A DNA stretch of 64,000 nt from Candidatus Roseilinea sp. (GTDB lineage Bacteria; Chloroflexota; Anaerolineae; J036; Brachytrichaceae). The translations under genes and the position numbers were made by a program. The stretch covers positions 43,630-107,629 of the forward strand of contig JANWYN010000068.1 of the NCBI GenBank assembly GCA_025055235.1. Reading direction: 5' to 3'. Shown here in pieces: positions 1,640 to 60,604 of the stretch. The notes beneath the pieces were generated by a model, which ran no database searches, was not told the DNA's origin, and saw only the letters and a list, made by a program, of their open reading frames with translations. Within the stretch, counting starts at the first letter, position 1, and each line of letters starts with the position of its first letter.

Positions 1640-4600
1640 CTGCGGTGGCCGTCGGCGAGCTTCACTTCGTCCAGCCGCAGGCTCAGCGCAGTGCTCGCGC
1701 CGTCCGCGCCCATGCTGATGCCGTAGATCGTCGTCGCTGCCTCCACCGTGCGCCGGTTGTGGGTGATGATGATGAACTGTGTGCTGTCGCTCAAGCTCTC
1801 CAGCATCGCGCGGAAGCGCCCGACGTTCGACTCGTCCAGCGCCGCATCCACCTCGTCCAGCACGCAGAACGGCGTCGGCTTCACCTGCAGGATGGCGAAC
1901 AAGAGCGCCGTCGCTGTGAGCGAGCGCTCGCCGCCGGAGAGCAGCGCTAGCGACTGCGGGCGCTTGCCGGGCGGCTGGGCGTGAATCTCCACGCCGCACT
2001 CGTCAATGTTGTCCGGGTTGATGAGCGAAAGCCGCGCCTGGCCACCGCCGAACAACACCTTAAACGTGCTCTGAAAGGCGGCGGCGATGGCGTCAAACGT
2101 TTGGCGGAAGGTGTCCTTCATCACGTCGTTCAGCTCGGCGATCACCTGGCGCAGCGCCGCCGAAGCCTTCTCCAAGTCGTCGCATTGCTCGGTGATGAAG
2201 CGGTGTCGCTCGCTCAGTGCCTCGAACTCGGCTTGCGCCTCGTAGTTGATCGCGCCCAGGCGTTTGATCTGCCCGCGCAACTGGGCGATGCGCTCTTCGA
2301 CGCCGGCGGGCAGCGCTTCGACGAGGGGCAGTGCCTCCAGGAGTGGAGATCGGAGATTGGGGATTAGAGATTGGTCTTCAGACGCCGCACTCGCATTCGC
2401 GGAGCCGTCACCGGCTTTCTCGATTCTCAATTCGTCATTCTCAATTTCAACCAGGGCGCGCTGGCGCAAGTTCTCCAGCTCATCGTTGTGCCGCGCCAGC
2501 TCCAACGTGATGGCGTTCAGGTGAGATTCGCGCTCGCGTAGCACTCGCTCGGCTTCGCGCCGGCGCTCGTCCAGCTCGCCGAGCTGCGCCTCGACGGCAG
2601 CAATCTCGTTTTGCAGCGGCGCGATCTCCGCGTCGGCTTCGCGCCAGGCAGCCTCCGCCTGAGCGGCAGCGTCCGCCATCTGTTGCAGCGTCGCCTGAGC
2701 TGCCTGCAGTTGCGCCGTCCATTCGGCCAGGCGCTGTGCGCGCAGTTCGCGCTGCGCCAACGCGTTGGCGTGCGCTGCGGCGCGCTCACGGCTGAGCGCC
2801 TCGGCATTCTGCATCGCGCCCAGCGCAGCCGAGAGCATCGCCTGCGCGGCGGTGAGCGGCTCCAGCCAACCGCTCTGGAGCTGCTCGCTCAAGCGGGCGT
2901 CGAGTTCGCGCAGCGCCTGCTGCGCTTGCGCGTGTGCTTCCTCGCGCTGGGCCAACGCGTCGCCGGCTTCCGCGAGTTGCCGGCCGAGCGACTCGATCTC
3001 TTCGGTCAGGCGCTCCATATCGCCGGCCAGCGCAGCCAGAGATTCTTCGAGCAGGTTGATCTTGCGCTGCGCAGCCTCGACGCGGTTGCGCCGGTTAGCG
3101 CTTTCGCGGTTGAAGATGTCGCGCGCTTGGGTCGCCTGTTCTAGCACATGTCGCGCGACCTCGAACTCGCGCTGCGCCGCATCGCGGTGCTGCCGGGCGC
3201 GTTCGAGGTTGGCCAGCACGGTTTCGTAATCCGGCGCTTCCACAAGATCGGTCTCTGCGCCCAGGATGATGGGGGAGCGCGCGCCTGCCGGCAGTGACAA
3301 CGCGCCGGTAGCGTGCGCCACTTCGCCGTCGCGCGTCACGCACAAGCAGCCATCGGGCAACTGTGCCGCCAACGCGCGCGCGGCGTCCAGGTCGCGCGCG
3401 ATGAACTTGCGCCCGGCGATGATGAGCATGGCCGGCTTCAGCCATTCAGGCGCGCTAATTGCGTCGAGCAGTGGGCGGGCGTGGTGCGCCCAGGCGTGCT
3501 CGTTTAGGATGCGGTCATTCGCCTCGCGCTCGTCGTCGAAGGCGCGCAGGGCATGCGTCATCACCACGGCGATTCGTCCGGATGCCTGCTCGGTGAGCCA
3601 GGCGCGCAGGCGCGTGAGGCCGGCCTCGCTTGCCTCCGGCGCGCTGGGGGCGATGACGACGGCGTTGAGCAACTCGCCCAGCGCCGCTTCGACGGCCTTC
3701 TGGTCGTCGGGGGCGATCTGGATGAAGGACGACAGCACGCCGCGCACGCTGGGCAGCTCAGCCCGCGCTGCTGCGGCCGCGAGCTCGTCCGCGCTGCGGG
3801 CGGCCAGCGCGCGCATGTCGGCGAAGAGCGTCATGCGCGAAGTCAAACGCTCCTCTGCCTCCGCCGCAGCCAAAGCAGATTGCGCCTGCTCCAACGATGC
3901 GCGCGCCGATTCGAGCGTTTGCACCGCCGACTCATACTGCGCTTCGAACAGGTTTATCTGCGACGCCTCGCGTTCCATCGCTGCGTTCATCTCGTTCAGC
4001 GTCGCCAGCTCAGCCTCACGCTGCGCGCCGAGGTCGGCTGCTCGCCTGGACATAGCATCGAGCTGCTGCCGTAACGCGTCTTGACGAGCGCGCAGGCCGG
4101 CGATGTGGTTGCGCGCTGCCAGCACGGCGTCGCCGGCCTCGGCCAGGCGCTGCTGAGCTTCGGCGCGCTGTTGCTCCAGCGTTGTGCGCTCGTTGCGTCG
4201 CTCGGACGCGGCCAGCTCCGCCGATTCGACTTCGCGCTGGCGCTCGAGATAGGCGGCCTGCGCCAGCGCAAAAGCAACCTGAGCTTCGTTGGCACGCGCG
4301 GCGAGCGCCTCGATCGCCGCAGCGGATTCGTCCAGCTCGCGTTGCGCATCTGCCACTTGTCGTTCCATCGCCGCGACCCGCTCACGCATGACGGCCAGAT
4401 CGCGCGATGCGGCTTCAGCGGCCTGGCGCGCGGCGTCGCGGCGAGGTTGTGCCTCGGCCAGGCGCGCCTGCAGCGACCGGCGCGCTTCGCGCAGCGCCCC
4501 GCCGCGTTCGTCCAGCGCATTGACTGTTTCCAGCGCCTCGGCGACGGCTTGCTGGGCGTCGCGTTGCGCAGCGGCAGCCGCTTCGATGGCGGATTGGACG

Positions 4601-5307
4601 CGCCGGTAGTGGTAGCCCAGCCACACGCGCGTGAGCTGGTTCAGCTCGTCGGCCAACAGACGATACTGGCGCGCGCGCTCGGCCTGTCGTTCGAGCTGCT
4701 TCAGGCGCGGCGTGATTTCGTTGAGGATGTCGCGGGCGCGTTCCAGATTGTGGTTGGTCTCTTCCAACTTGCGCAGGGCGTCTTCGCGCCGATCGCGATA
4801 GCCGGCGATGCCGGCGGCTTCTTCGAACAACGCGCGGCGCTCCTCCGGCTTTTGCGCCAGCGCCTCGTCCACCAAGCCCTGGCCGATCACCGTGTAGGTG
4901 CGTTCAGCCAGGCCGCTATGAGCAAGCAGGTCGGTCACATCGCGCAGGCGCACGCGGTTGCCGTTCAGCACGTATTCGTTGGCGCCGTCGCGGTAGGCGC
5001 GCCGGCCGATCTCGATCTCGCTGAACTCGATGGGGAAGAAGCCGTCGCTGTTGTCGAAGGTGAGGATGACTTCGGCCATGCTGGCGCGCGGCCGGCGAGC
5101 GCTGCCGGAGAAGATCATGTCGTCGGTCTTCTTGCCGCGCAGCAAGGAGAACTGCTGCTCGCCGAGCGCCCAGCGGATGCCGTCGGCGATGTTGCTCTTG
5201 CCGCTGCCGTTGGGCCCGATGATGCAGGTGATGCCTTCGCCGAACTCGAAGCGCGTCTTGCTGGCGAAGGTTTTGTAGCCGTTGAGCGTGAGTGTCTTCA
5301 GGCGCAT
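1636..5307 (-). CDS. smc: Chromosome segregation protein SMC.
   Basis: Walker A GPNGSGKSN, long coiled coils, signature LSGGERSLTA and Walker B VLDEVDAALD at the C-terminus. The probable start is MRLKTLTLNGYKTF (M8 of the track ORF). Confidence 0.9.
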   Translation of the reverse strand: MRLKTLTLNGYKTFASKTRFEFGEGITCIIGPNGSGKSNIADGIRWALGEQQFSLLRGKKTDDMIFSGSARRPRASMAEVILTFDNSDGFFPIEFSEIEIGRRAYRDGANEYVLNGNRVRLRDVTDLLAHSGLAERTYTVIGQGLVDEALAQKPEERRALFEEAAGIAGYRDRREDALRKLEETNHNLERARDILNEITPRLKQLERQAERARQYRLLADELNQLTRVWLGYHYRRVQSAIEAAAAAQRDAQQAVAEALETVNALDERGGALREARRSLQARLAEAQPRRDAARQAAEAASRDLAVMRERVAAMERQVADAQRELDESAAAIEALAARANEAQVAFALAQAAYLERQREVESAELAASERRNERTTLEQQRAEAQQRLAEAGDAVLAARNHIAGLRARQDALRQQLDAMSRRAADLGAQREAELATLNEMNAAMEREASQINLFEAQYESAVQTLESARASLEQAQSALAAAEAEERLTSRMTLFADMRALAARSADELAAAAARAELPSVRGVLSSFIQIAPDDQKAVEAALGELLNAVVIAPSAPEASEAGLTRLRAWLTEQASGRIAVVMTHALRAFDDEREANDRILNEHAWAHHARPLLDAISAPEWLKPAMLIIAGRKFIARDLDAARALAAQLPDGCLCVTRDGEVAHATGALSLPAGARSPIILGAETDLVEAPDYETVLANLERARQHRDAAQREFEVARHVLEQATQARDIFNRESANRRNRVEAAQRKINLLEESLAALAGDMERLTEEIESLGRQLAEAGDALAQREEAHAQAQQALRELDARLSEQLQSGWLEPLTAAQAMLSAALGAMQNAEALSRERAAAHANALAQRELRAQRLAEWTAQLQAAQATLQQMADAAAQAEAAWREADAEIAPLQNEIAAVEAQLGELDERRREAERVLRERESHLNAITLELARHNDELENLRQRALVEIENDELRIEKAGDGSANASAASEDQSLIPNLRSPLLEALPLVEALPAGVEERIAQLRGQIKRLGAINYEAQAEFEALSERHRFITEQCDDLEKASAALRQVIAELNDVMKDTFRQTFDAIAAAFQSTFKVLFGGGQARLSLINPDNIDECGVEIHAQPPGKRPQSLALLSGGERSLTATALLFAILQVKPTPFCVLDEVDAALDESNVGRFRAMLESLSDSTQFIIITHNRRTVEAATTIYGISMGADGASTALSLRLDEVKLADGHRR
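2341..2378. repeat. Heptamer tandem repeat (GGAGATT-like, about 5 units) inside the smc coding region.
   Basis: Reads ggagatc ggagatt ggggatt agagatt. It encodes a low-complexity insert (…SEDQSLIPNLRSPLLEALPLVEALPAG…) in the SMC coiled coil. Confidence 0.6.
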
Positions 5308-5392
5308 CGCGGGGTTGATTCTAACCACACCTGGTCGAGCTGGTCTTGAAACTTTCGAGAGGGCAAGGAGTCAAGAATTTAGGAAGTCTGCA

Positions 5393-5430
5393 ATCTTGAC
5401 AGAACCAGGGGAGATAGCGATACTATATCG
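5393..5430 (+). promoter_or_regulatory. Putative sigma70-type promoter (TTGACA … TACTAT) upstream of the NYN-domain gene.
   Basis: TTGACA at 5393 with a TA-rich -10-like hexamer 17-19 nt downstream. A perfect 9-bp hairpin (gaagccgcc-gcaa-ggcggcttc, 5468-5489) lies in the 5' UTR. Confidence 0.3.
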
Positions 5431-5503
5431 CAGATCCCCCGGTAGTAGCTTTCGCGAACCCGGTGCGAAGCCGCCGCAAGGCGGCTTCTGTGCTATTTAT
5501 GCC

Positions 5504-6124: not shown

Positions 6125-6134
6125 CGGTGTGGTG

Positions 6135-6932
6135 TCACTGCGTCGCTGCCATTTCGTGCGCCCGAATCACCTGCAGCCACATCTCGGCGTGCATCTCCAA
6201 GCCGAGGTCCGAGAAGTGACAGCCGTCGTAGCGATACTCCGGCCCAAGCCGGTCGGTGTCCGGGCCGAGGAAGATGCCCAGTCGCGAATCGGCCAGGCCG
6301 ATCTGCGCTGCGCGAATGGTCTCGTTGGGCGGATACTGGCCGCAGCGCGTCGCGATGGCGACAAACGCCGGCGCATCCACGCCCAGCGCGCGAATTGCCT
6401 CCAGCATGGCCAGGAAGCGCTGCCGGTAGTCCTCCGCGGACGTGCCCAGCACGGCGTCGCTTTCGCCCTGGTGCCACAGCAAGTGGGTGAAGGTGAGCCG
6501 GGCCCGACGGGCTTCGCGCACGTTGCGCAGCAGCTCTTTGTGCAGAGCGCCGCCCGGCGCCCACTGGGCAATCTCCGTCGCACCGATCGAAGCCGGCACG
6601 AACACTACGCGGTCGTAGAGCTTCGCGGCGATGATCTTGTCGCCCAGGCGCGTCCATACGCTGCCGCCGCTGCCGTTCGCGCCGGGCAAGGGGTCGCGGG
6701 CGCGCTCGTAGCGGCCGCGGAAGAAGTTGAACACCTGCGGGCCGGCGACGCGCCGGCTCTCGCCCCAATTGCCGGCGTTCGACTGGCCGAACACGAGCGC
6801 GACCATGACGCGCGGGCGCGCCGCTGGAGGGGTCGGCGTGAGTGATTGGGCATGCGCTGAGGGATGAACCGTCGCGGCGATCAGCGTCGCCAGCGCTGCT
6901 GCTAATCGCAAGAGGAACTGCCGTCGGCTCAT
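6135..6932 (-). CDS. SGNH-type carbohydrate esterase (DUF303 / sialate O-acetylesterase-like) with a Tat signal peptide.
   Basis: Signal MSRRQFLLRLAAALATLIAATVHPSAHA carries a twin-arginine motif. LVFGQSNAGNWG is the GQSN block of the SGNH/DUF303 family. Confidence 0.7.
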   Translation of the reverse strand: MSRRQFLLRLAAALATLIAATVHPSAHAQSLTPTPPAARPRVMVALVFGQSNAGNWGESRRVAGPQVFNFFRGRYERARDPLPGANGSGGSVWTRLGDKIIAAKLYDRVVFVPASIGATEIAQWAPGGALHKELLRNVREARRARLTFTHLLWHQGESDAVLGTSAEDYRQRFLAMLEAIRALGVDAPAFVAIATRCGQYPPNETIRAAQIGLADSRLGIFLGPDTDRLGPEYRYDGCHFSDLGLEMHAEMWLQVIRAHEMAATQ

Positions 6933-7180
6933 CGGGGGATGACGTTGGTGAGGATGATGACAAGCGCCAGACCGGCCAGCGCCGCTGCAGCTACGACGAG
7001 CGCGCGCGATAACCAAACGGCCTGCCCATGGTGCCGGTGCATCGCCGCGCCGCGCTGCAATTCGGCCGTGTTCGCCGAAGGCACACCGGCTACGTTGCTG
7101 AGCCACCACGCCCGTGCGCAATAGGCATACTGGCCGATTTCGCTGGCCCGGATCACGCGTTGCTGGTGGAGGTCGGACAT
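6929..7180 (-). CDS. Hypothetical small tail-anchored membrane protein (83 aa).
   Basis: ATG start, C-terminal hydrophobic helix (LVVAAAALAGLALVIILT). Its stop overlaps the downstream esterase ATG (ATGA). There is no clear RBS. Confidence 0.3.
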   Translation of the reverse strand: MSDLHQQRVIRASEIGQYAYCARAWWLSNVAGVPSANTAELQRGAAMHRHHGQAVWLSRALVVAAAALAGLALVIILTNVIPR

Positions 7181-7200
7181 GAGAAGGCGGAAGGCAGAGA

Positions 7201-7291
7201 TCAGAGGTCAGAAGTCAGAATTCAGAATCCAGAGTCCAGAACTCAAAACTCACGGCTCACGGCTCACGGCTCACAGCTCACAGCTCACCCC
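7201..7291. repeat. Heptanucleotide tandem-repeat tract, about 13 units (TCAGARN x7 grading into TCACRGC x6).
   Basis: Reads tcagagg tcagaag tcagaat tcagaat ccagagt ccagaac tcaaaac tcacggc x3 tcacagc x2 tcacccc. It abuts the stop codon of the 7285 regulator. Confidence 0.85.
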
Positions 7292-8616
7292 ACCAGCTTA
7301 TAGCCGCGACCGCGCAGCGTGATCAGGTAGCGCGGCTCTTCGGCGTTCGGTTCGAGCTTGCTGCGCAGCCGGCTGACCAGCTTCTCGATTCGCGCGTCGT
7401 CCACCGCATCGAGATAGGTTTCGCCCCACACGTTCGTGACGATAGTGTATTTGTCTACGATCTTGTTCAGCCGGCCGTAGAGCAGCAACAACAGCTTGTA
7501 CTCCAGCTCAGTCAGCGGCTCGATCTTGCGGCCGTCAACGTACACCTCGCCGGCGTCCACGTCTACCGTCACGCCGCGTTGCAGATCCTCGCGCGCCAGG
7601 CCCTGCCGGTGGACGAACGCGCGCCAGATTTCGCCGACGAGTGGCTCATCTTCCCGGTTGTCCCTGCCAAGCAAGCATTTAGCACGCAGCGCATCAAGCG
7701 CCTCCGGCTCGGCGGGCATGCCGTGCACGTGGCCGATCAGCGCGGTTTGCTCGGCCTCGCTCAGTTGCGACCATAGCTTGGCGCATTCGGCGCGGATCGG
7801 AGGCTGGTCATCCAACGCTTGACGCACGAGCGCGAGCGCGCTCTCCCGCGCGCTGTCCGGCACGCCGCCTGCGATGCGACGCCACACCTCGGTCGTCGTC
7901 TCCAGCAGGCCGGCATGCCCGCCGGCCTGTTGCACGATGAAGGCGATGTCGGCTTCGGCGGCCGGTGCGCCGGCAACGAACTCGCGTGCGAGGGCAGTGG
8001 CGTCGCTGTGGCTCAAAAAGCCGATCCAGCGTTCGCGTGTGTCGAACAACTCGATGAACTCGCTCGCATCGGCACTCTGGCTGATTTGCGCCAGCGGTCG
8101 CTCGGTTGCCGTCACATAGACCAGCGCGTTCTTGAAGCGATCCTTCATGGCGCGCAGGTTGAGGAAGACGCGACCGGTCAGCTTCTCGAACGGATCGTCG
8201 AACTCGTCGAAAAGGATAACCAGAGCGCGGCCGGATTCTTCGCACACCAGCCGCAGGGCATTGTCGAACGCCAGCGGGCTGCGGATTGGCGCGGCCGGCT
8301 GCACGACCTGGTGGTATGACTCATCGAGTTGCTCGGCCAGCGCATCTTGCACGCCCGAGCGCCGCAGCGCAGCGATGATGCTGCGCAGCGTGATCTCGTG
8401 CAGCGCCTGCTCGCTGAGCTCGGGCATCAGGTTGCAGTCCACGTAGGCGAACAGCCACGCGTCGCCCTCATCGCCGAACAATTCCGTCTGGACGGCCGGC
8501 GTGCAGACCTCGCGCAGCAGCGCCGATTTGCCCGTATTGCTCAGGCCAACGATGGAAGTGCAGTTGCCCTGCCGGACGGCGTTCAGGATGAAACGGGCGT
8601 CGTGTTCACGGATCAT
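7285..8616 (-). CDS. Transcriptional regulator: N-terminal AAA/P-loop ATPase domain fused to a C-terminal OmpR/PhoB-type winged helix.
   Basis: Walker A GLSNTGKS, Walker-B-like VILFDEFDD, and a C-terminal trans_reg_C signature (…YLITLRGRGYKLV). Start trimmed to MIREH. Confidence 0.7.
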   Translation of the reverse strand: MIREHDARFILNAVRQGNCTSIVGLSNTGKSALLREVCTPAVQTELFGDEGDAWLFAYVDCNLMPELSEQALHEITLRSIIAALRRSGVQDALAEQLDESYHQVVQPAAPIRSPLAFDNALRLVCEESGRALVILFDEFDDPFEKLTGRVFLNLRAMKDRFKNALVYVTATERPLAQISQSADASEFIELFDTRERWIGFLSHSDATALAREFVAGAPAAEADIAFIVQQAGGHAGLLETTTEVWRRIAGGVPDSARESALALVRQALDDQPPIRAECAKLWSQLSEAEQTALIGHVHGMPAEPEALDALRAKCLLGRDNREDEPLVGEIWRAFVHRQGLAREDLQRGVTVDVDAGEVYVDGRKIEPLTELEYKLLLLLYGRLNKIVDKYTIVTNVWGETYLDAVDDARIEKLVSRLRSKLEPNAEEPRYLITLRGRGYKLVG

Positions 8617-8694
8617 AGGGCAATCGAGTTGCTGCGATGTGTGCGCGGGTACATTCGCCAACAGGGGCAGACGCACTTTTGACCCTATACGCGA

Positions 8695-10488: not shown

Positions 10489-10501
10489 ACTGCCTCACGC
10501 C

Positions 10502-12549: not shown

Positions 12550-12597
12550 ACGTCTTGCGTCCTTCGTCTTGCATCTTGTGTCTGCGTCTTACGTCTT
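12550..12597. repeat. Heptamer tandem repeat RCGTCTT (about 7 units) in a divergent intergenic region.
   Basis: Reads acgtctt gcgtcct tcgtctt gcatctt gtgtct gcgtctt acgtctt. It shares the string GCGTCTTACGTC with the array at 21286-21348. Confidence 0.8.
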
Positions 12598-12644
12598 GCG
12601 CATGACGCACTTTTGGCATTATCATCTGAGCTGCGGTGAGATAG

Positions 12645-13417
12645 ATGGCTTTCACGGTCAGCGACTTCAACGATCTGGTGCAGTTGTTGAACGCCCACCC
12701 AGAGTGGCGCGGCGAGCTGCGCCGCCTCGTGCTTAGTATGACATTCTTGAACTACCTAGGGTCGTTCATGAACTTGCCGAGGCGCAGAAGCGCACCGAGG
12801 TGCGGGTGGAAGAGCTTGCCGAGGCGCAGAAGCGCACCGAGGCGCGGGTGGACGAGCTGGCGCGCCGGATGGATGAGTTGGCGAAGCAAATGAGCGAGCT
12901 GGCCGCCGCGCAAGCAGAGATGCTTCGCGAGCAGCGGCTGATGCGCCAACAATTGGGCAGCCTCTCTAAGGACATGGCCGGCGTGAAAGGCATCGTCCTG
13001 GAACTTCGGTATCGCACCCGTGCGCACGCCTACTTCGGCACGCGCTACCGCAACCTGCGCGTAATCGAGCCATCTAACTTGGACAAGGTCGAGCAAGCGT
13101 ATGAGGCCGGCCAGTTCACCGAATGCGAATGGCGCAATCTGAATAAGATTGATGTGTTGATGCGTGGCACGACCGGCGTCGGCCCCAGCAAACGAGAAGA
13201 ACTGCTGGCGCTCGAAGTGTTGTGGATCATTGATGCCAGTGACATCGAACGCGCCAACGAGCGCGCTGATATTCTTCGCCGGCTTGGATACCCCGTGCAA
13301 GCCGCTGTGGGAGGGCACGATATTCTCGAAAGCGCCAAGAACCGTGCAAAGGAGCTGAACGTCCTTGTCGCGCTCGATGGAACCTTGGACAAGGACGAGG
13401 GTGAGGCATCGAACTGA
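12645..13417 (+). CDS. Hypothetical coiled-coil protein. There is an apparent +1/-1 frameshift between an N-terminal segment (12645-~12770, MAFTVSDFNDLVQLLNAHPEWRGELRRLVLS…) and the main frame (12800-13417).
   Basis: Two ORFs in different frames abut at a 42-bp x2 tandem repeat (LAEAQKRTEVRVEE / LAEAQKRTEARVDE). The downstream frame has no ATG, only a GTG inside the repeat. The C-terminal part (…LEVLWIIDASDIERANERADILRRLGYP…) is globular. Confidence 0.4.
12773..12856 (+). repeat. 42-bp direct tandem repeat (2 near-identical units) encoding a coiled-coil heptad segment.
   Basis: cttgccgaggcgcagaagcgcaccgagg(t/c)gcgggtgga(a/c)gag occurs twice in tandem. Confidence 0.85.
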
Positions 13418-14301
13418 TGATCATCCTCGACGGCGCGATGGGCACGGAGCTGACCCGGCGCGGCGTGGATACGACGCTGCCACTGTGGTCGGCCATCGCG
13501 CTCGACGCCGCGCCGGACGTCGTCGTGCAAATTCACCGCGATTACCTCGACGCCGGTGCACAGGTCATCACCACGAACACCTTCCGCACTAACGTGCGCG
13601 CACTGGCTAAAGCCGGTATCGCCCATCGCGCACGCGAGCTGACCTTTCGGGCGGTCGAGCTGGCGCGACAAGCTGTGGCTCAATGGCGACAGGGACAAGG
13701 GGACAGGGAGACAAGGGGACGAGGAGACCTGCCCCCTGTCCGAGTCGCCGGTAGCGTCGCCCCGGTTGAGGATTGCTACTCGCCGGAGCTTGTCCCCAGC
13801 GATGCCGAGTTAGCCGAGGAGCACGCCATCCTCGCGCGCAACCTGGCCGATGCCGGCGTAGATCTGATGCTGGTCGAGACGCAGAATACGATTCGTGAGG
13901 CCGTCGCCGCGGCGCGTGCTGCCCACGCCACCGGCAAACCGTTGTGGGTGAGCTTCACGCTGGACGATGAGAATCGGCTGCTGAGCGGCGAGTCGCTGCA
14001 CGACGCCGTTCGCGCCGTGCTGCCGTTCGAGCCACAGGCCGTCCTGGTCAACTGCATCCCGGTCAAACAAGTTGCCTCGGCACTGAAGCTGCTGCGCAGC
14101 GCGGCGCCGCCTCACGTCGCCATCGGCGCATATGGCAACGCCGGCCATGTGGACGAGGTGGTCGGCTGGACGTTGACGAACGCAGTTTTGCCGGAAGCGT
14201 ATGCCGAAGCAACGCGCGAATGGCGCGCCCTGGGCGCGACGATCATCGGCGGCTGTTGCGGCACCACGCCGGAGCACATTCGTGCCATCGCTGCCTGCTG
14301 A
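13417..14301 (+). CDS. mmuM: Homocysteine S-methyltransferase (MmuM/YbgG family).
   Basis: MIILDGAMGTEL…ITTNTF…LVNCIPV…IIGGCCGTTPEHIRAI are classic S-methyl_trans (PF02574) blocks. It contains an in-frame low-complexity insert (QGQGDRETRGRGDLPP) encoded by GGGGACA heptamer repeats. Confidence 0.8.
   Translation: MIILDGAMGTELTRRGVDTTLPLWSAIALDAAPDVVVQIHRDYLDAGAQVITTNTFRTNVRALAKAGIAHRARELTFRAVELARQAVAQWRQGQGDRETRGRGDLPPVRVAGSVAPVEDCYSPELVPSDAELAEEHAILARNLADAGVDLMLVETQNTIREAVAAARAAHATGKPLWVSFTLDDENRLLSGESLHDAVRAVLPFEPQAVLVNCIPVKQVASALKLLRSAAPPHVAIGAYGNAGHVDEVVGWTLTNAVLPEAYAEATREWRALGATIIGGCCGTTPEHIRAIAAC
13686..13745. repeat. Heptamer tandem repeat GGGGACA (about 5 units) followed by an inverted copy (ccccctgtcc), inside mmuM.
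   Basis: Reads gcgacag ggacaag gggacag ggagaca aggggac gaggaga cctgccccctgtcc. The same GGGGACAG/CTGTCCCC unit recurs at 57095-57182. Confidence 0.75.
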
Positions 14302-21249: not shown

Positions 21250-21285
21250 CGGGGCGGAGTGTATCGCAGCGCGACATGCGCTTTA

Positions 21286-21348
21286 CGCTTCACGTCTTGC
21301 GTCTTACGTCCTGCGTCGTGCGTCGTGCGTCGCGCGTCCTGCGTTTTT
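21286..21348. repeat. Heptamer tandem repeat RCGTCNT (about 9 units) in a divergent intergenic region.
   Basis: Reads acgcttc acgtctt gcgtctt acgtcct gcgtcgt gcgtcgt gcgtcgc gcgtcct gcgtttt. Same family as 12550-12597. Confidence 0.8.
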
Positions 21349-21378
21349 GCAACTTCTGCGATACTTTGCCTGCGACAT

Positions 21379-22374: not shown

Positions 22375-22395
22375 TCGGAGCAATTCCCCGAACTG

Positions 22396-22580
22396 TCAGC
22401 GGCTGTACTGCTCCGACGAGAGGATAACGTCAGCATGTGTGCGTCCAGAGAGTGCATACTCGCGCGCCAATTTCAGGTAATCGCCGGCGTTGCAGGACAA
22501 AATCGCCATGCCGCGGGATGTTGCGTAAGCGAGCTGTGATGTGTCGTCTGCGCCTAATGCCAATTGCGTAGCCAACCTGG
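22396..22580 (-). pseudogene. Truncated, degenerate remnant of a DUF5615 (PIN-like toxin) family gene.
   Basis: The minus-strand frame reads …LGADDTSQLAYATSRGMAILSCNAGDYLKLAREYALSGRTHADVILSSEQYSR*. This matches the conserved core of DUF5615 (…ASDEEILAYA..R.LVT.D.DFG.L…) as remembered from that family. There is no ATG, the N- and C-terminal parts are missing, and the acidic residues are substituted. Confidence 0.4.
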
Positions 22581-22607
22581 GCTAATTCGCCTTCAAACGA
22601 CATGTGC

Positions 22608-22678
22608 ATGTCATTCCCGCGAAAGCGGGAATCCAGCCACGCATAGCCTCTGGATGCCCGCGTTCGCGGGCATGACAT
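22608..22678. repeat. Nested palindromic element: two about 29-bp arms, each containing its own hairpin, in inverted orientation around a 13-bp spacer (MITE/REP-like or bidirectional terminator).
   Basis: Left arm atgtcattcccgcgaaagcgggaatccag, spacer ccacgcatagcct, right arm ctggatgcccgcgttcgcgggcatgacat. The arms are reverse complements apart from compensating changes that preserve each internal hairpin. Confidence 0.6.
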
Positions 22679-22827
22679 ACCTGCGGTTCTATAAGTTGGC
22701 AGCGCACACGGGTACAGAACGGCGTCCGGGGCACGGAACGACGTCCCGTGCCCTACCGTGCGATGGTTTGCCCCTATCCGCGAATGCACCCACGCACCCA
22801 GCCACACGCGCAGTAGCGTAGAATTGA

Positions 22828-24222
<1,395 letters not shown>

Positions 24223-51550: not shown

Positions 51551-51583
51551 GGCTGACGCCTAAGTGTAATCCCAAGCGCCGGC

Positions 51584-52594: not shown

Positions 52595-52676
52595 ACTACA
52601 ACTTCACGCGACGCGGGACGGAAGTGGGTCGAATAAGCCCACTTTCGCTTTTCTAAGACGCATGAGGTAACGGGCC

Positions 52677-54539: not shown

Positions 54540-54550
54540 ACCGGTCGAAG

Positions 54551-54847: not shown

Positions 54848-54905
54848 GGTCGCAATTTGTGACCAGTGAAGGTCGAACGCTGAGGCCTTTTCAGCAGACT
54901 TGAAG

Positions 54906-54939
54906 CAACGCAGGCTTCTCACGAGCCTGCGTTGTTATT
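54906..54939 (+). terminator. Terminator/attenuator-like hairpin in the ylxR-infB intergenic region.
   Basis: caacgcaggct-tctcacg-agcctgcgttg followed by TTATT. A second long-range inverted repeat (gaggcttgagccg … cggctgaagcctc) follows. Confidence 0.35.
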
Positions 54940-55063
54940 GCCGGCGCTCGGCGGTGCGCATGCGACGCCTGGAGTAGAGGCTTGAGCCGATCATCGGCGC
55001 GACGACCGGCTGAAGCCTCCACTCCAACGCACTGCGGAGCGCGGCGAAGAGAGGTGATCCATT

Positions 55064-57076: not shown

Positions 57077-57094
57077 ACAGCGCAGGCATGGACC

Positions 57095-57182
57095 GGGGAT
57101 CAGGTGACGGGGACAGCATCCAGCTCATCTCAACCCTGACCCCTGACCCCCGATCCCTGACCCCTGTCTCCTGATCCCTGAC
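57095..57182. repeat. Heptamer repeat element: an inverted arm (ggggatcaggtgacggggacag) followed by about 7 tandem CCCTGAC units ending 1 nt before the rbfA ATG.
   Basis: Reads ccctgac ccctgac ccccgat ccctgac ccctgtc tcctgat ccctgac. The upstream arm is partly reverse-complementary (GTCAGGG/CCCTGAC, GGGGACAG/CTGTCCCC). Confidence 0.8.
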
Positions 57183-57183
57183 C

Positions 57184-57552
57184 ATGAGCAAGAAGTACGA
57201 GAAGCGCGTCAACGAACTCATCCGCATGCATCTGGCCGAGTTGTTGGAACGTGAGTTGAACGACCCGCGCGTGAACGGCGCGCAGGTGACGATCACCGAT
57301 GTGGAGGTCACGCCCGACGTGCGCCACGCGAAGGTGTTCTACAGCCTGATCGGCGACGAAGCGCAAAAGGCCGAGGTCGCGCGTGGGTTGGAGAGCGCCG
57401 CCGGCTGGCTCAGCCGCGAGCTGGGCAAGCGCCTGCGCACGCGCCACACGCCGCAGTTAACGTTTGAATTCGACGAGTCGTTCGAGCGCGGCGACCGCCT
57501 GTCGCGGCTGCTGGACGAGTTGAGGGGCGACGAGGAGATACGAGCGTCTTAA
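57184..57552 (+). CDS. rbfA: Ribosome-binding factor A.
   Basis: RVNELIRMHLAELLEREL.DPR…VTITDVEVTPDVRHAKVFYS is the RbfA KH-like domain signature. Confidence 0.85.
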   Translation: MSKKYEKRVNELIRMHLAELLERELNDPRVNGAQVTITDVEVTPDVRHAKVFYSLIGDEAQKAEVARGLESAAGWLSRELGKRLRTRHTPQLTFEFDESFERGDRLSRLLDELRGDEEIRAS

Positions 57553-58526
57553 TGTTGACCGACCCTCGCACCTGGGCAGACGCCGAAGGCTATCTGCGCC
57601 GCGCTCAGTCTATCCTGGCAGTTACCCATGTTTCACCCGACGGCGATGCCATCGGTAGCTTGCTGGGGTTCACGCACGCCATGCGCGGCCTCGGCAAGCT
57701 GGTCACGCCGGCTTGCCAGGATCAGGCACATCCGCGATTCGACTACCTCAAGGGCGTGCGCGACATCCGCCAGTCCGGCGAGGGCGAGTTCGACTTGATC
57801 GTTTCGCTCGATTCGAGTGACCTGGCCCGCCTCGGGTCGGTCTTCATCCCGGCACAGCACAGTCACCTGCCGATCGTGGTGTTCGATCACCACATCACCA
57901 ACCTGAACTTCGGCGCGGTGAACGTGGTCGAGCCGGGCGCATCTTCGACGGCCGAGATCGTCTACACGCTGCTCCGGCGGATGGACGTGACGATCACTCC
58001 TGACATCGCCAACGCGCTGCTAACCGGCGTGATCACCGACACGCTGGCCTTCCGCACGTCGAGCACCACGCCCGATACGCTGGCCGTGGCGATGGACCTG
58101 ATGCGCTGCGGGGGCAACCTGCAAGAAGTCACGCGACAAGCGCTGGTGATGCGTTCGTTCGATTCGCTGCGTTTGTTGGGCGCCGGCCTGATGAACGCGC
58201 GGGTCGAGGGCCGGCTGGCCTACGCTACGCTGCCGCGCAAGCTGCGCAAGGAGCTGGACGTGAAGGAGGAACGCGGCGACGCCGGCCTGGTGGGCATGCT
58301 GATCACGGCCTACGAGGTGGATGTGGCTGCGGTGTTCGTGGAGCTGCAGAACGGCGAAATCGAAGTCGGCCTTCGCGCGCAGCCGGGCTTCGACGTGTCG
58401 CAGGTGGCACTCGAGCTGGGCGGAGGCGGTCACCCTGCCGCTGCCGGCTGCACGCTGCCCGGCCCGATGCGCGACGCAGTCAACCGCGTGCTGCCGCGCC
58501 TAAAGCAGGTGATTCGCGAAGCGTAG
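57552..58526 (+). CDS. nrnA: DHH/DHHA1 phosphoesterase NrnA (bifunctional oligoribonuclease / pAp phosphatase-like).
   Basis: DHH motifs HVSPDGDAIGS and DHH (VVFDHHIT). DHHA1 C-terminal GGGH (ELGGGGHPAAAG). Confidence 0.8.
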   Translation: MLTDPRTWADAEGYLRRAQSILAVTHVSPDGDAIGSLLGFTHAMRGLGKLVTPACQDQAHPRFDYLKGVRDIRQSGEGEFDLIVSLDSSDLARLGSVFIPAQHSHLPIVVFDHHITNLNFGAVNVVEPGASSTAEIVYTLLRRMDVTITPDIANALLTGVITDTLAFRTSSTTPDTLAVAMDLMRCGGNLQEVTRQALVMRSFDSLRLLGAGLMNARVEGRLAYATLPRKLRKELDVKEERGDAGLVGMLITAYEVDVAAVFVELQNGEIEVGLRAQPGFDVSQVALELGGGGHPAAAGCTLPGPMRDAVNRVLPRLKQVIREA

Positions 58527-58553
58527 CTGCCGGCTCGCGCACGGAGCGCTCCT

Positions 58554-59555
58554 ATGCTCGCGCTGCTTGCCCAGATCGCCCCACAACGCAGCACACAATA
58601 CAGCGCGCTCGCCAGCGCACTAGCGCCGCACGAGCTGCAACTGAGCGTCCTCCGTGAGCGAATCGCTTCGCTCAGCGCAGTGGAACTGGGCGGGCAGCCC
58701 TATCTGAAATGCGAGCTGTCTGCTCCGCCGACCGATGCGGATCTTGGCGAGCTGGGTATGTTCGCGACGATGAGTGCGTTCTTCGAGTATGCCGAACGCC
58801 TGGGCGAGCGCGATGGGCCGTGGCTGCGGCCCATCGAGACGCGCTTCCGGCCGGCCTTCCCGCCGGAATTGGCCGCCGCCCGGCGCTACAAGGGCAAGAC
58901 CAACGAGTTGTTCACGCATTTCATGTGCAACGTGGCGCGCTTCAGCAGCGCATTCGCCGGTTTGCCGTGGCGCGCGTTGCGCGTGTTCGACCCGCTGGCC
59001 GGCGGCGGGACGACGCTCTTCACGGCGCTCGTCCTCGGCGCAGAAGCGGCGGGGGTGGAGAGGTGCAGAGAAGACGTTGAATCTACGGTGGCCTTCTTGG
59101 CGCAATACGCCCGCGAGCAAGGCATCGCGCATACAGTGAAAGAAGAACGATTGAAGCAATTCGGCCGGCGCTGGCGATTCACGTTCGCAGCGGAAGGATT
59201 GCCGGCGCAGTGCGTGCTGGCGCGCGGCGAGACGGCGCACGCGGCGGCATTGATGGACGGCGTCAAACGTCCGCACTTGATCGTCGCCGATTTGCCCTAC
59301 GGCATCCGGCATCGCGGGGAGCTGGCCGAGCTGTTGGAAGCGGGGCTGCCGGTGTGGTCGGCGATGCTCCTCGAAGGCGGCGCGCTGGTGTTCGCCTGGG
59401 AGTCGGCCCGTTTCCCGCGCGCGGAGATGATCGGGCTAGTCGAGTCGTGCAGCGGACTGCACGTGTTGAACGAGCCGCCGTATGACCGGCTGGCGCATCG
59501 CGTAGACCGCGTCATCAAGCAACGCGATGTGATCGTGGCGCGGAAGGCGCCGTAG
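58554..59555 (+). CDS. Putative SAM-dependent (RNA) methyltransferase with a DPPY-like motif DLPYG.
   Basis: Motif I VFDPLAGGGTTLFTALVLG, motif IV LIVADLPYGIRH. An N-terminal non-catalytic domain. Confidence 0.5.
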   Translation: MLALLAQIAPQRSTQYSALASALAPHELQLSVLRERIASLSAVELGGQPYLKCELSAPPTDADLGELGMFATMSAFFEYAERLGERDGPWLRPIETRFRPAFPPELAAARRYKGKTNELFTHFMCNVARFSSAFAGLPWRALRVFDPLAGGGTTLFTALVLGAEAAGVERCREDVESTVAFLAQYAREQGIAHTVKEERLKQFGRRWRFTFAAEGLPAQCVLARGETAHAAALMDGVKRPHLIVADLPYGIRHRGELAELLEAGLPVWSAMLLEGGALVFAWESARFPRAEMIGLVESCSGLHVLNEPPYDRLAHRVDRVIKQRDVIVARKAP

Positions 59556-59566
59556 TTAGGTGCGCG

Positions 59567-60604
59567 ATGGACGGCCTGTTGATCGTTGACAAGCCGCGCG
59601 GGATGGCGTCGCACGATGTGGTGGCGCGCGCGCGCCGGCTGTTGCGCGAGAAGCGCATCGGCCACGCCGGCACGCTCGACCCGCTGGCGACCGGCGTGCT
59701 GGTGCTGTGCATCGGCCAGGCCACCCGCCTGAGCGAATACTTGCTTGGCGAAGACAAGGCCTATGCCGGCGTGATCCGGCTGGGCCAGCGCACGACGACC
59801 GACGACGCCGAGGGCGAGGTGATCGCAACGCGCCCCGTGCCGCCGCTGACCGAGGAGACGCTGAGGCAGCTCGAAGCGCGCTTCACCGGCACAATCGCGC
59901 AAACGCCGCCGCAGTTCTCTGCCATTCAAAAGGGCGGCCAGCGCGCCTATGCCCTGGCTCGTCAAGGCCGGCCGGTCGAGCTGGCGCCGCGGCAGGTGAC
60001 GGTGTATGAGCTGCGGCTCGCGCTGCCCGGCAGCGATGATTCAAGATTGATGACTGATGATTTCCCACCCCCCACTCCCGATTCCCCAATCATTCAATCA
60101 TCAATCATCCAATCATCAATCATTCACCATCAATCATCGGGAGCCGGGAGTGGGGAGTCGGTAGTCGGCCATCTGTGCCTCTTCGTCCGCTGCTCCGCCG
60201 GCACCTACGTTCGCGCTCTGGCGCGCGACATCGGCGAGGCGCTCGGTTGTGGCGGCCATCTGGTTGCGCTGCGCCGCATGCAGGCCGGCCGCTTCACGCT
60301 GGCCGATGCCGTCACGCTCGATCAGGTCGAAGCCGCAGTGCGCGAGGGCAAAGCTGCATCGTTGTTGCTGCCGATGGACCGCGCGGTGGCCGATTGGCCC
60401 GCAGTGCATTTGAGCGACGCCGACGCGCGGCGGTTGAAGATGGGACAAGCGATTGCGTTGCCACAGCCGGTCGCTCTCCCAAGCGCAGCTCGCGGGGTGC
60501 GCGTGTATGATTCTCGCCGTACGTTCATTGCCATCGCGCACTGGGATGGAACGAAACTCAAACCGGCGAAGGTCTTCGATGCAGCTCCTCCACTCGTTCG
60601 ATGA
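59567..60604 (+). CDS. truB: tRNA pseudouridine(55) synthase TruB carrying an about 45-aa low-complexity insertion.
   Basis: LLIVDKPRGMASHDVVARARRLL…GHAGTLDPLATGVLVLCIG and the catalytic Asp motif. Insertion SDDSRLMTDDFPPPTPDSPIIQSSIIQSSIIHHQSSGAGSGESVVG between the conserved blocks VYELRLALPG and HLCLFVRCSAGTYVRALARDIG. Confidence 0.85.
   Translation: MDGLLIVDKPRGMASHDVVARARRLLREKRIGHAGTLDPLATGVLVLCIGQATRLSEYLLGEDKAYAGVIRLGQRTTTDDAEGEVIATRPVPPLTEETLRQLEARFTGTIAQTPPQFSAIQKGGQRAYALARQGRPVELAPRQVTVYELRLALPGSDDSRLMTDDFPPPTPDSPIIQSSIIQSSIIHHQSSGAGSGESVVGHLCLFVRCSAGTYVRALARDIGEALGCGGHLVALRRMQAGRFTLADAVTLDQVEAAVREGKAASLLLPMDRAVADWPAVHLSDADARRLKMGQAIALPQPVALPSAARGVRVYDSRRTFIAIAHWDGTKLKPAKVFDAAPPLVR
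60069..60165. repeat. Heptamer repeat element inside truB: an inverted arm (cccactcccgattcccc), about 7 units of CAATCAT, then about 4 units of CGGGAGT (complement of the arm).
   Basis: Reads aatcatt caatcat caatcat ccaatcat caatcat tcaccat caatcat cgggagc cgggagt ggggagt cggtagt. The whole insert is about 135 bp (in frame). Confidence 0.8.

What the first reader, a model, noticed from the sequence alone, without database searches (positions are those of the whole stretch)
2341..60165. Family of heptanucleotide tandem-repeat elements scattered through intergenic and coding DNA
At least seven loci carry 4-13 tandem copies of a 7-bp unit: 2341-2378 GGAGATT; 7201-7291 TCAGARN/TCACRGC; 12550-12597 and 21286-21348 RCGTCTT; 13686-13745 GGGGACA; 57095-57182 CCCTGAC; 60069-60165 CAATCAT/CGGGAGT. 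Several tracts are flanked by an inverted copy of the same unit (13731-13745, 57095-57116, 60069-60085), so the element can fold as a long hairpin. Three elements sit inside conserved ORFs (smc, mmuM, truB) with total lengths that keep the frame. This resembles the STRR heptamer repeats of heterocystous cyanobacteria, but here in a high-GC genome. It suggests a small repeat element that expands or inserts and is tolerated in protein loops.
Basis: seen in the sequence. Interest (0 to 1): 0.7.

Follow-up and report, generated by a model that had tools for sequence, protein, structure and literature searches.

The report
Heptamer tandem repeats, Chloroflexota genome
This Roseilinea-related Chloroflexota genome carries many short arrays of 7-base tandem repeats, which gain and lose copies between relatives and are tolerated in gene spacers and in loops of three housekeeping proteins; this is a new host lineage for a known kind of bacterial repeat, not a new kind of element.

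Summary
Period 7 and its multiples 14 and 21 are the only periods with strong arrays in the window; shuffles give about 0 to 0.3. The density in this lineage is about 4.7 times that in 1.1 Mb of high-GC control loci.

- The mmuM element has period 8, not 7.
- The 7.2-kb array runs 7181-7288 as one register of about 15 units.
- smc carries a second array at 2417-2450.

The organism is a Chloroflexota MAG related to Ca. Roseilinea and Thermoflexales. In syntenic relatives the same spacers carry the same units in different copy numbers (about 15, 12 and 5 units). The smc array differs by exactly 21 nt, which is 3 units. The truB, mmuM and smc sites vary greatly in length across the lineage. The truB insert is a predicted disordered loop.

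I found no target-site duplication, no shared flanks and no dispersed conserved core, so transposition is not supported.

Best reading: long heptanucleotide simple-sequence repeats (STRR/LSSR type), resized by slippage, with local inverted duplication producing hairpins. Heptamer repeats are already described in cyanobacteria, Xanthomonas, Burkholderia, Geobacter and Beggiatoaceae, some of them high-GC. This is a new member of a known kind. Function is unproven.

The parts
2344..2374 (-). Heptamer array inside smc. The plus strand reads (GGAGATT)n and the sense strand (AATCTCC)n. It encodes ...SLIPNLRSPLL...
   Evidence: TRF. Sequence, translation. The window differs from ortholog L094 by exactly 21 nt (3 units) here.
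2417..2450 (-). Second heptamer array inside smc. The plus strand reads (TTCTCAA)n and the sense strand (TTGAGAA)n. It encodes ...EIENDELRIEK...
   Evidence: TRF (5.0 copies). Sequence. The smc site varies in length across the lineage.
7181..7288 (-). One continuous array of about 15 units. It fills the whole spacer from the TGA stop of the AAA_16/Trans_reg_C regulator gene (7285-8676) to the ATG of a conserved 83-aa gene (6929-7180). The sense strand reads (GCYGTGA)5 then (YTCTGAN)~10, with a single register NNNNTGA.
   Evidence: (score 56.5). Orthologous spacers in L093 (3+9 units) and L094 (1+4 units) carry the same units. No significant fold (z +1.6).
12551..12600 (+). (CGTCTTG)7.3 array, 30 nt upstream of the FAD-monooxygenase start codon (12520, minus strand), in a non-coding stretch.
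   Evidence: The ortholog L093 has a shorter version of about 3 units, and L094 has none. No significant fold on either strand.
13685..13749 (+). Period-8 hairpin element inside mmuM, not period 7. The left arm is (GACARGGR)~5 at 13692-13728 and the inverted arm is 13731-13745. It encodes ...QGQGDRETRGRGDLPPVR...
   Evidence: TRF periods 8 and 16. Fold z -3.4. The L093 ortholog has a longer period-8 hairpin, z -3.2. The loop varies in length in 35 homologs.
21293..21344 (+). (CGTCNTG)7.4 array in the divergent spacer between a methyltransferase-like gene (start 21249, minus strand) and an NAD-epimerase gene (start 21379, plus strand). It is bracketed by a conserved inverted repeat: GTATCGCAG at 21261-21269 and CTGCGATAC at 21356-21364.
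   Evidence: Ortholog L094 has 4 units between the same conserved flanks.
57095..57116 (+). G-rich inverted arm (GGGGATCAGGTGACGGGGACAG) of the hairpin between infB and rbfA.
   Evidence: Fold z -2.5, with the rbfA AUG paired at the base of the stem. Hairpins are also present in L081, L083 and L091, and L082 carries a repeat-rich fold that is not significant (z -0.7). L089 keeps only a degenerate remnant by eye (not folded), and the spacer is absent in L090 and L092.
57134..57183 (+). (CCCTGAC)7.1 array ending one base before the rbfA ATG (57184). It forms the C-rich arm of the hairpin. The antisense strand carries (GTCAGGG)n, with G3 tracts.
60034..60168 (+). Composite in-frame element inside truB, with four blocks: A' (GATGATT)4 at 60034-60062; B' (YCCCACY)3 at 60059-60086; A (CAATCAT)7 at 60087-60138, with a 15-nt super-unit; B (CGGGAGY)4.6 at 60137-60168. 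A' pairs with A and B' pairs with B, so the inverted repeats are interleaved. It encodes a loop of about 40 aa.
   Evidence: In the DNA alignment, B is ancestral coding sequence that L082 and L083 also carry, and A'B'A is extra with no target-site duplication. L081 has the same element minus 15 nt. AlphaFold gives pLDDT below 50 for residues 169-196.

Best explanation
These are long heptanucleotide simple-sequence repeats, with one octanucleotide case. They belong to the same general kind as cyanobacterial STRR and the 'LSSR' of Mrazek et al. 2007. The host is a Roseilinea/Thermoflexales-related Chloroflexota lineage.

What is shown: each array sits at a fixed chromosomal site that relatives share by descent. 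Between relatives it changes mainly by gain and loss of whole units.

What is inferred: the mechanism is strand slippage during replication or repair. Where an array lies next to its own inverted copy (rbfA leader, mmuM, truB), the inverted copy most likely arose locally by template switching or fold-back copying of the neighbouring sequence, followed by expansion. That produces hairpin-capable elements.

Arrays survive only where length change is harmless. These places are intercistronic and divergent spacers, which an array can fill completely from stop codon to start codon, and a few surface loops or coiled-coil segments of housekeeping proteins. In proteins only frame-preserving steps persist: 21 nt (3 units), or 15- and 24-nt super-units.

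A cis-function, such as an mRNA hairpin or an SD-less leader, is possible at some loci but is not needed to explain the data.
For: - Period specificity. Only periods 7, 14 and 21 give strong arrays in the window. In 268 kb of lineage loci, period 7 occurs at 6.3 per 100 kb, against 1.3 per 100 kb in 1.12 Mb of controls with GC at least 0.58. That is 4.7-fold, Poisson P about 3e-7. Period 8 is about 2.5-fold enriched. Periods 4, 5, 10 and 11 are not enriched.
- Same locus, different copy number. The spacer between the regulator and the 83-aa gene has 5+10 units in the window, 3+9 in L093 and 1+4 in L094, all of the same two unit types. The methyltransferase/epimerase spacer has about 7-9 units in the window against 4 in L094, between conserved flanks.
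- The smc array differs by exactly 21 nt, which is 3 units.
- The truB A array differs by one 15-nt super-unit between the window and L081.
- Local origin of the inverted arms. In truB the B block is ancestral coding sequence that L082 and L083 also have. B' is its inverted copy within the extra DNA. There is no target-site duplication.
- Permissive sites. The truB, mmuM and smc sites vary in length across many homologs. The truB insert is predicted to be disordered.
- Decay. L089 and L090 keep unstructured, non-repetitive remnants at the truB site. The infB-rbfA spacer is absent in L090 and L092.
- Turnover. L091 carries a different unit, (GCGCAAA)n with an inverted copy, at the same truB site.
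- Precedent. Heptamers are the most abundant long-SSR class in many bacteria, including high-GC ones, and slippage has been proposed as the cause (PMC4679880 introduction; PMC4692102).
Against: - Slippage was not observed directly. No population or read-level polymorphism was available.
- Slippage alone does not explain why 7 nt is favoured, or why repeats persist at the same sites in proteins that are only about 60% identical.
- Units recur at non-orthologous loci somewhat more than chance. Examples are CGTCNTG at three loci, TCAGAAR at the window 7.2-kb site and the L082 rbfA spacer, and CCTGAC at two loci. That is 7 of 136 pairs within 1 mismatch, against about 2% expected and 1 of 255 against control arrays. 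This hints at sequence-specific selection or a shared source.
- Spacer arrays end right at start codons that have no visible Shine-Dalgarno sequence, and they carry TGA in one register. This could reflect function.
- The lineage loci were retrieved through genes that carry inserts, so the density estimate has some ascertainment bias.
Confidence: 0.6

Rival explanations
1. The arrays are selected cis-acting RNA or DNA elements. Spacer arrays and hairpins would control expression of the downstream gene. Possible mechanisms are sequestering the start codon, acting as an SD-independent leader that a protein with a 7-nt footprint binds unit by unit (cold-shock-domain or S1-like OB folds), forming a ladder of TGA stops in all three frames for termination-reinitiation coupling, or forming a G-quadruplex or i-motif on the (GTCAGGG)n/(CCCTGAC)n tract. 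Slippage would then only tune the element.
For: - The arrays abut start codons, and no Shine-Dalgarno sequence is visible upstream of them: rbfA, the 83-aa gene and its orthologs, and the L091 truB.
- The rbfA AUG is paired at the base of the predicted hairpin.
- A hairpin is kept at the infB-rbfA spacer in the window, L081, L083 and L091 even though the sequences differ (z -2.2 to -4.1 for the three folded: window, L081, L083; the L091 rbfA hairpin was seen by eye only).
- Units recur at non-orthologous loci.
- Literature: TAACTGA repeats replace SD sequences in Beggiatoaceae, and CspB binds one protein per heptamer (PMC4679880). G-rich heptamers lie within 50 bp upstream of ORFs on the antisense strand and form G4 in vitro (PMC4692102).
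Against: - The unit sequences are too diverse for one binding protein or one structure. Most lack G tracts.
- Orientation is not uniform. L087 has a purine-rich (GGGAGTA)n before its ATG, and the window 12.5-kb array is purine-rich in the sense strand.
- The rbfA spacer is absent in L090 and L092 and degenerate in L089.
- Four of the window arrays have no significant fold.
- Covariation in the rbfA hairpin alignment is negligible: 1 compensatory pair and a covariation term of +0.06.
- Arrays that fill a short spacer must touch both the stop and the start codon, so that contact carries little information.
- Coding-region copies cannot have this function.
Confidence: 0.22
2. The elements are small non-autonomous mobile palindromic elements, like MITEs or Rickettsia palindromic elements (RPE). 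They would insert into spacers and, in frame, into genes.
For: - Three elements are palindromic and lie in frame inside conserved genes, as RPEs do (PMC10969869).
- Some units recur at non-orthologous loci.
- A different hairpin occupies the same truB site in L091.
Against: - There is no target-site duplication and there are no terminal inverted repeats at the truB junction.
- No two loci share flanks or a full-length consensus.
- The rbfA hairpin core GGGRATCAG occurs once in the window, against 0.79 expected by chance.
- Elements sit at orthologous sites and differ by whole repeat units, not by presence or absence of a fixed-length insert.
- Part of the truB element (block B) is ancestral coding sequence.
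Confidence: 0.08
3. The tracts are assembly artefacts or chance low-complexity sequence.
For: The window comes from a metagenome-assembled genome.
Against: - The arrays are at most about 110 bp.
- The same arrays occur at orthologous sites in independent assemblies: Logan SRR28863565 (L081), complete genome AP024676.1 (L082, L093) and ENA ERZ6863929 (L094).
- Shuffles give about 0 arrays.
- The in-ORF copies keep the reading frame.
Confidence: 0.01

Closest known systems
Long heptanucleotide simple-sequence repeats (LSSR, Mrazek et al. 2007), including the cyanobacterial STRR sequences (Mazel et al. 1990, from my own knowledge; summarised in PMC4679880 and PMC4692102)
   Same: - Head-to-tail 7-nt units in 4-15 copies.
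- Heptamers are the dominant non-triplet period.
- Several different units occur in one genome.
- Arrays lie mostly in spacers close to ORF ends.
- Copy number and sequence vary between close relatives while the locus is conserved.
- The function is unknown.
   Different: - The host is a Chloroflexota lineage. No paper in the searched library links heptamer repeats with Chloroflexota.
- The unit sequences differ from STRR1-3.
- A notable share lie in frame inside housekeeping genes.
- Several are paired with inverted arrays to form hairpins.
- One element has period 8.
G-rich GGGNATC / GGGGA(C/T)T heptamer repeats of Xanthomonas and Nostoc (Rehm et al. 2015, PMC4692102)
   Same: - Some hosts are high-GC genomes.
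- The rbfA array has its G-rich strand (GTCAGGG)n on the antisense strand within 50 bp upstream of the ORF, as that paper describes.
- Inverted copies give stem-loops that compete with G4 formation.
- The smc array contains GGGGATT and GGAGATT units.
   Different: - Most window units (CGTCTTG, CAATCAT, TTCTGAC, CTCACGG, TTCTCAA) have no G tracts.
- There is no preference for four units.
- G4 formation was not tested.
TAACTGA direct repeats of marine Beggiatoaceae, cyanobacteria and Bacteroidetes (MacGregor 2015, PMC4679880), and the MTYCTGA x5 and GGACCGG x4 heptamer elements of Geobacter metallireducens (PMC2700814)
   Same: - The arrays lie immediately upstream of start codons, where no SD sequence is visible.
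- Repeats overlap the upstream stop codon.
- They share a CTGA core (window YTCTGAC and CCCTGAC).
- Geobacter elements occur both between and within genes.
   Different: - The window has many unit types, not one dominant heptamer.
- Some window arrays reach higher copy numbers.
- The window has hairpin-type inverted arrays.
- No candidate binding protein was examined.
Rickettsia palindromic elements (RPE) and other in-frame MITEs (PMC10969869)
   Same: Palindromic DNA of about 60-135 bp lies in frame in unrelated housekeeping genes, at positions compatible with the protein fold.
   Different: - RPEs are dispersed copies of about 150 bp with family consensus sequences, and they encode conserved peptides.
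- Here there is no consensus beyond the unit and no target-site duplication.
- The sites are orthologous, and length changes in whole units.

Membership tests
Heptanucleotide long SSR (LSSR/STRR-type) | Tandem head-to-tail copies of a 7-nt unit, longer than chance allows | tested here: met
   TRF. Shuffles give 0-0.3 arrays against 3-5 observed at period 7.
Heptanucleotide long SSR (LSSR/STRR-type) | Period 7 dominates over other non-triplet periods in the genome | tested here: met
   In the lineage, period 7 occurs at 6.3 per 100 kb, periods 4, 5, 10 and 11 at 0-0.7, and period 8 at 2.6. Controls give 1.3. Only 268 kb was sampled, not whole genomes.
Heptanucleotide long SSR (LSSR/STRR-type) | Copy number varies between related genomes at a conserved locus | tested here: met
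   15, 12 and 5 units at one spacer; a 21-nt step in smc; a 15-nt step in truB.
Heptanucleotide long SSR (LSSR/STRR-type) | Copy number is polymorphic within a population through replication slippage | not testable with these tools
   This needs reads or isolates of one population.
Cyanobacterial STRR1-3 in the strict sense | Units CCCCAGT, TTGGTCA or CAACAGT in heterocystous cyanobacteria (from my own knowledge) | tested here: not met
   The units differ. The organism is Chloroflexota.
G4-forming GGGNATC-type repeats (Rehm 2015) | At least four consecutive units, each with a G3+ tract | tested here: inconclusive
   The feature is met only on the antisense strand of 57134-57183, where 6 of 7 units carry CCC. 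The other arrays do not meet it. G4 formation itself cannot be tested here.
TAACTGA repeats (MacGregor 2015) | Unit TAACTGA | tested here: not met
   No such unit is present. Only the CTGA core is shared.
TAACTGA repeats (MacGregor 2015) | Array lies directly upstream of a start codon and replaces the SD sequence | tested here: met
   True for rbfA (57134-57183, ATG at 57184) and for the 83-aa gene (array ends 2 nt before the ATG at 7180).
MITE / RPE | Target-site duplication and terminal inverted repeats at the insertion boundaries | tested here: not met
   The truB filled-site versus empty-site alignment shows none.
MITE / RPE | Multiple dispersed copies sharing a full-length consensus | tested here: not met
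   Similarity exists only at the unit level. The core GGGRATCAG occurs once in the window. Only 64 kb plus the fetched loci were searched.
MITE / RPE | In-frame residence in unrelated conserved genes | tested here: met
   smc, mmuM and truB.
REP/BIME | Conserved imperfect palindrome of about 35 bp in many copies, associated with a RAYT transposase | tested here: not met
   The inverted repeats in the window share no consensus. RAYT genes were not searched for.
Known structured RNA family (Rfam) | Match at the gathering score | tested here: not met
   0 matches in the window.

The most novel reading that the evidence does not exclude
The 7-nt period is functional and does not come from polymerase slippage. 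On this reading the arrays are register-specific platforms. Each unit would bind one single-stranded-RNA-binding OB-fold protein (cold-shock-domain or S1-like). Alternatively, the NNNNTGA ladders would place a stop codon in all three frames directly before an SD-less start codon, to control termination-reinitiation coupling between cistrons. A limited repertoire of units would then be maintained by selection across the lineage. The in-gene hairpins would be spill-over from the same generating process, or from a lineage-encoded repeat-generating activity.
Probability: 0.1. Interest if true: 0.7.

Novelty: new member of a known kind. Interest (0 to 1): 0.35.

Why it matters
Heptamer repeats have been known in bacteria for more than 30 years, yet neither their function nor the reason for the 7-nt period is established.

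This lineage offers clean natural experiments:
- The same spacer carries 5, 12 or 15 units in three relatives.
- There are frame-constrained steps of 21 and 15 nt inside essential genes.
- Hairpin-type arrays recur at one loop of TruB with different units.

These loci could be used to measure slippage rates and to test whether copy number tunes translation of the downstream gene.

There are also practical consequences:
- Gene callers extend ORFs into the arrays, producing spurious N-termini in several database TruB entries.
- The arrays create low-complexity inserts that can mislead alignments and phylogenies of marker genes in Chloroflexota MAGs.

Tried and rejected
- My single genome-contig scan, run with a truB alignment, picked universal motifs. 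It returned 80 unrelated bacteria instead of close relatives. I used these loci as controls.
- An exact look-up of the window TruB found nothing. Relatives were reached through the homolog ids instead.
- The metagenome scan with the lineage-specific 333-aa protein gave only 4 loci.
- RNAalifold on four infB-rbfA spacers gave no usable covariation, because the repeat register makes the alignment ambiguous.
- Rfam and tRNA scans found nothing.
- I looked for a dispersed conserved core (GGGRATCAG). It occurs at chance level.
- A purine/pyrimidine orientation rule for spacer arrays was considered and dropped. L087 and the 12.5-kb array are exceptions.
- A G-quadruplex explanation was rejected as a general one, because most units lack G tracts.
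- I did not test promoter overlap. The consensus scan is not calibrated for Chloroflexota.

Full report
**Observation**

Tandem Repeats Finder reports period-7 arrays at 2344-2374, 2417-2450, 7182-7288, 12551-12600, 21293-21344, 57134-57183, 60087-60138 and 60137-60168. I read each one in the sequence.

I then ran a self-shift scan over periods 2-24. In the strict version, only periods 7, 14, 21 and one 15 gave arrays. The counts were 3, 2, 1 and 1, against 0.0 in 20 dinucleotide shuffles. In the lenient version, periods 7, 14 and 21 gave 5, 8 and 10 arrays against about 0.3 expected. Other non-triplet periods stayed at background.

Three corrections apply:
- The mmuM element (13692-13728) has period 8 (TRF periods 8 and 16), and so does its ortholog.
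- The array at 7.2 kb is one continuous run of about 15 units, 7181-7288.

**Organism and gene context**

The window's TruB is 100% identical to a protein of an 'Anaerolineae bacterium' MAG. The closest named relatives are Ca. Roseilinea, Thermoflexales and Brachytrichaceae.

Pfam confirms the neighbouring genes: IF-2, RbfA, a DHH phosphoesterase, homocysteine S-methyltransferase, an FAD monooxygenase, an NAD epimerase, an AAA_16/Trans_reg_C regulator and a SASA esterase. SMC is evident from the translation.

The placement of each array is as follows:
- The 7181-7288 array fills the entire spacer from the regulator's TGA stop to the ATG of a conserved 83-aa gene at 6929-7180.
- The (CCCTGAC)7 array ends one base before the rbfA ATG.
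- The two (CGTCNTG)n arrays lie 30-35 nt upstream of start codons in non-coding stretches.
- Three elements lie in frame in smc, mmuM and truB.

**Structure**

Inverted copies are real at three loci. Fold z-scores against 200 shuffles are -2.5 for the infB-rbfA spacer, where the AUG is paired at the base of the stem, -3.4 for mmuM and -1.9 for truB.

The truB element is composite: (GATGATT)4, (YCCCACY)3, (CAATCAT)7, (CGGGAGY)4.6. The first block pairs with the third and the second with the fourth, so the inverted repeats are interleaved.

The arrays at 2.3, 7.2, 12.5 and 21.3 kb are direct repeats only and fold no better than shuffles. No Rfam family and no tRNA matches anywhere in the window.

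**Comparison with relatives**

I retrieved syntenic loci from independent assemblies:
- L081: Logan assembly, TruB 92% identical.
- L082 and L093: complete Ca. Roseilinea sp. genome AP024676.1.
- L083: Brachytrichaceae.
- L089-L092 and L094.

At orthologous sites the same units recur with different copy numbers:
- The spacer between the regulator and the 83-aa gene has (GCYGTGA)5 + (YTCTGAN)~10 in the window, 3+9 units in L093 and 1+4 in L094. The array reaches the start codon in all three.
- The methyltransferase/epimerase spacer has about 7-9 units in the window against 4 in L094, between conserved flanks that include the inverted repeat GTATCGCAG...CTGCGATAC.
- The smc (AATCTCC)n array differs from L094 by exactly 21 nt, which is three units.
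- The truB (CAATCAT)n block differs from L081 by one 15-nt (7+8) super-unit.

Protein alignments show that all three in-gene sites vary greatly in length and are low in complexity across the lineage. They are short in more distant Chloroflexota. The ranges are about 0-45 aa for truB, 0-30 aa for mmuM and 20-90 aa for smc. Some inserts are visibly translated heptamers, with a 7-aa period. Examples are NPEPRTQNPEPGTQ and SPISNLQSPIS.

AlphaFold2 on the TruB alignment gives pLDDT below 50 for residues 169-196, which is the insert. These lie between confident strands 142-152 and 202-209. Mean pLDDT is 85.

A more distant relative, L091, has a different heptamer hairpin at the same truB site: (GCGCAAA)n with an inverted copy, z -3.0. 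It also has two more G-rich/C-rich heptamer hairpins in operon spacers. L089 and L090 keep only unstructured remnants. The infB-rbfA spacer is missing altogether in L090 and L092.

**Enrichment**

In 268 kb of lineage loci, period-7 arrays occur at 6.3 per 100 kb. In 1.12 Mb of unrelated bacterial loci with GC at least 0.58, the rate is 1.3 per 100 kb. That is 4.7-fold, with Poisson P about 3e-7. Period 8 is about 2.5-fold enriched. Periods 4, 5, 10 and 11 are not enriched.

One caveat is that the lineage loci were reached through genes that carry inserts.

The controls themselves contain the same phenomenon sporadically:
- A nested palindrome of heptamer arrays directly after truB in a Streptomyces (L019).
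- A perfect (CCGCCTG)13 array in another Streptomyces (L073).
- Inverted heptamer arrays in an Opitutus MAG (L025).

**Mobile element or local repeat**

The alignment of filled and empty truB sites shows no target-site duplication. It also shows that the (CGGGAGY)n block is ancestral coding sequence that L082 and L083 share. The extra DNA contains the inverted copy of that block.

No two loci share flanks. The hairpin core GGGRATCAG occurs once in the window, against 0.79 expected.

Consensus units do recur at non-orthologous loci slightly more than chance. Seven of 136 pairs lie within one mismatch, against about 2% expected and 1 of 255 against control arrays. These pairs are not independent, and the similarity stops at the unit.

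**Interpretation**

The data fit long heptanucleotide SSRs that are inherited in place and resized in whole units. Slippage is the inferred mechanism. The inverted arms are best explained by local template-switch copying, also inferred. Arrays survive only in length-tolerant DNA. Inside genes only frame-preserving steps are seen.

This is the class described as STRR in cyanobacteria and as LSSR by Mrazek et al. 2007. In that class heptamers are the commonest long unit, and high-GC genomes such as Xanthomonas, Burkholderia and Actinobacteria are prominent (PMC4679880; PMC4692102). Geobacter metallireducens has heptamer elements both between and within genes (PMC2700814).

The rbfA array matches the placement reported by Rehm et al., with the G-rich strand antisense and within 50 bp upstream of an ORF. 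The spacer arrays match MacGregor's description of repeats that replace the SD sequence directly before start codons. That paper also notes that B. subtilis CspB binds one molecule per heptamer.

A functional role remains possible at some loci. Candidates are start-codon sequestration, an SD-less leader, and TGA in one register giving stops in all three frames. The evidence against a general function is the diversity of units, the inconsistent orientation (L087), the dispensability of the rbfA spacer and the absence of covariation.

Rickettsia palindromic elements are the closest analogue for palindromic in-frame inserts (PMC10969869). Their defining features, a dispersed consensus and insertion signatures, were tested here and not met.

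**Novelty and verdict**

No paper in the searched library links heptamer repeats with Chloroflexota or Roseilinea, so the host lineage appears to be new. The recurrent 'expansion segments' in TruB, SMC and MmuM are also new detail. The kind of element is known.

Verdict: a real feature and a new member of a known kind. Interest is moderate to low (0.35).

Noticed in passing
window 22608-22678, within the apparently non-coding stretch 22375-22860: A 71-nt nested palindrome: ATGTCATTCCCGCGAAAGCGGGAATCCAG ... CTGGATGCCCGCGTTCGCGGGCATGACAT. The arms are 29 nt long and 90% complementary, and each arm contains its own small hairpin. It is unrelated to the heptamer arrays and has no Rfam match. It could be a small RNA, a terminator complex or a different repeat element.
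   Followed up: partly
window 12773-12858: A 42-bp tandem duplication: 2.0 copies, 95% identical, TRF score 158. It lies at the start of ORF 12800-13417, which has no Pfam match and overlaps the mmuM start codon by one base.
   Followed up: no
L091 10503-10575, 9940-10048, 8881-8947: A relative whose TruB is 59% identical carries a different heptamer hairpin, (GCGCAAA)n with an inverted copy, at the same truB loop. A (CAATCNN)5 array abuts the real truB ATG. A near-perfect G-rich/C-rich heptamer hairpin lies 14 nt before the next gene.
   Followed up: yes
Proteins P0025, P0028, P0073, P0076 (alignment A1, columns 1-32): Several database TruB entries have N-terminal extensions that look like translated heptamer arrays, for example ...FNPKSAIENP... 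In L091 the gene caller extended the ORF into the upstream (CAATCNN)n array; the other three entries were not checked at the DNA level. This is an annotation artefact to expect in this lineage.
   Followed up: partly
window 7181-7288 (minus strand); L093 3325-3412; L094 4779-4818; window 57134-57183: On the sense strand the spacer arrays keep TGA at the same position of every unit (NNNNTGA). This puts stop codons in all three frames between the upstream stop and the next start. In L093 the last TGA overlaps the ATG (CTGATG). No Shine-Dalgarno sequence is visible.
   Followed up: partly
L019 10903-11051 (Streptomyces sp. HNM0575); L073 11064-11156 (Streptomyces sp.); L025 8491-8578 (Opitutus MAG): Unrelated control genomes carry heptamer arrays right next to truB. 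L019 has a nested palindrome, (CTGAGGG)n (ATGACAG)n / (CTGTCAT)n (CCGTCAG)n. L073 has a perfect (CCGCCTG)13 array. L025 has inverted (GATTTTC)n / (AAATCGA)n arrays. Heptamer-array hairpins are therefore not confined to this lineage.
   Followed up: partly
L082 8420-8505: In Ca. Roseilinea sp. AP024676.1 the infB-rbfA spacer carries (TCAGAAR)x10. This is the same unit family as the window's array at 7183-7245, which lies at a non-orthologous locus. The spacer is 187 nt long, against 107 nt in the window.
   Followed up: partly
L087 443-480: A perfect (CCTACTC)5.4 array. On the sense (minus) strand it reads (GGGAGTA)n and ends 4 nt before an ATG, so it forms a tandem run of Shine-Dalgarno-like motifs. 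Its orientation is opposite to the pyrimidine-rich leaders seen elsewhere.
   Followed up: no
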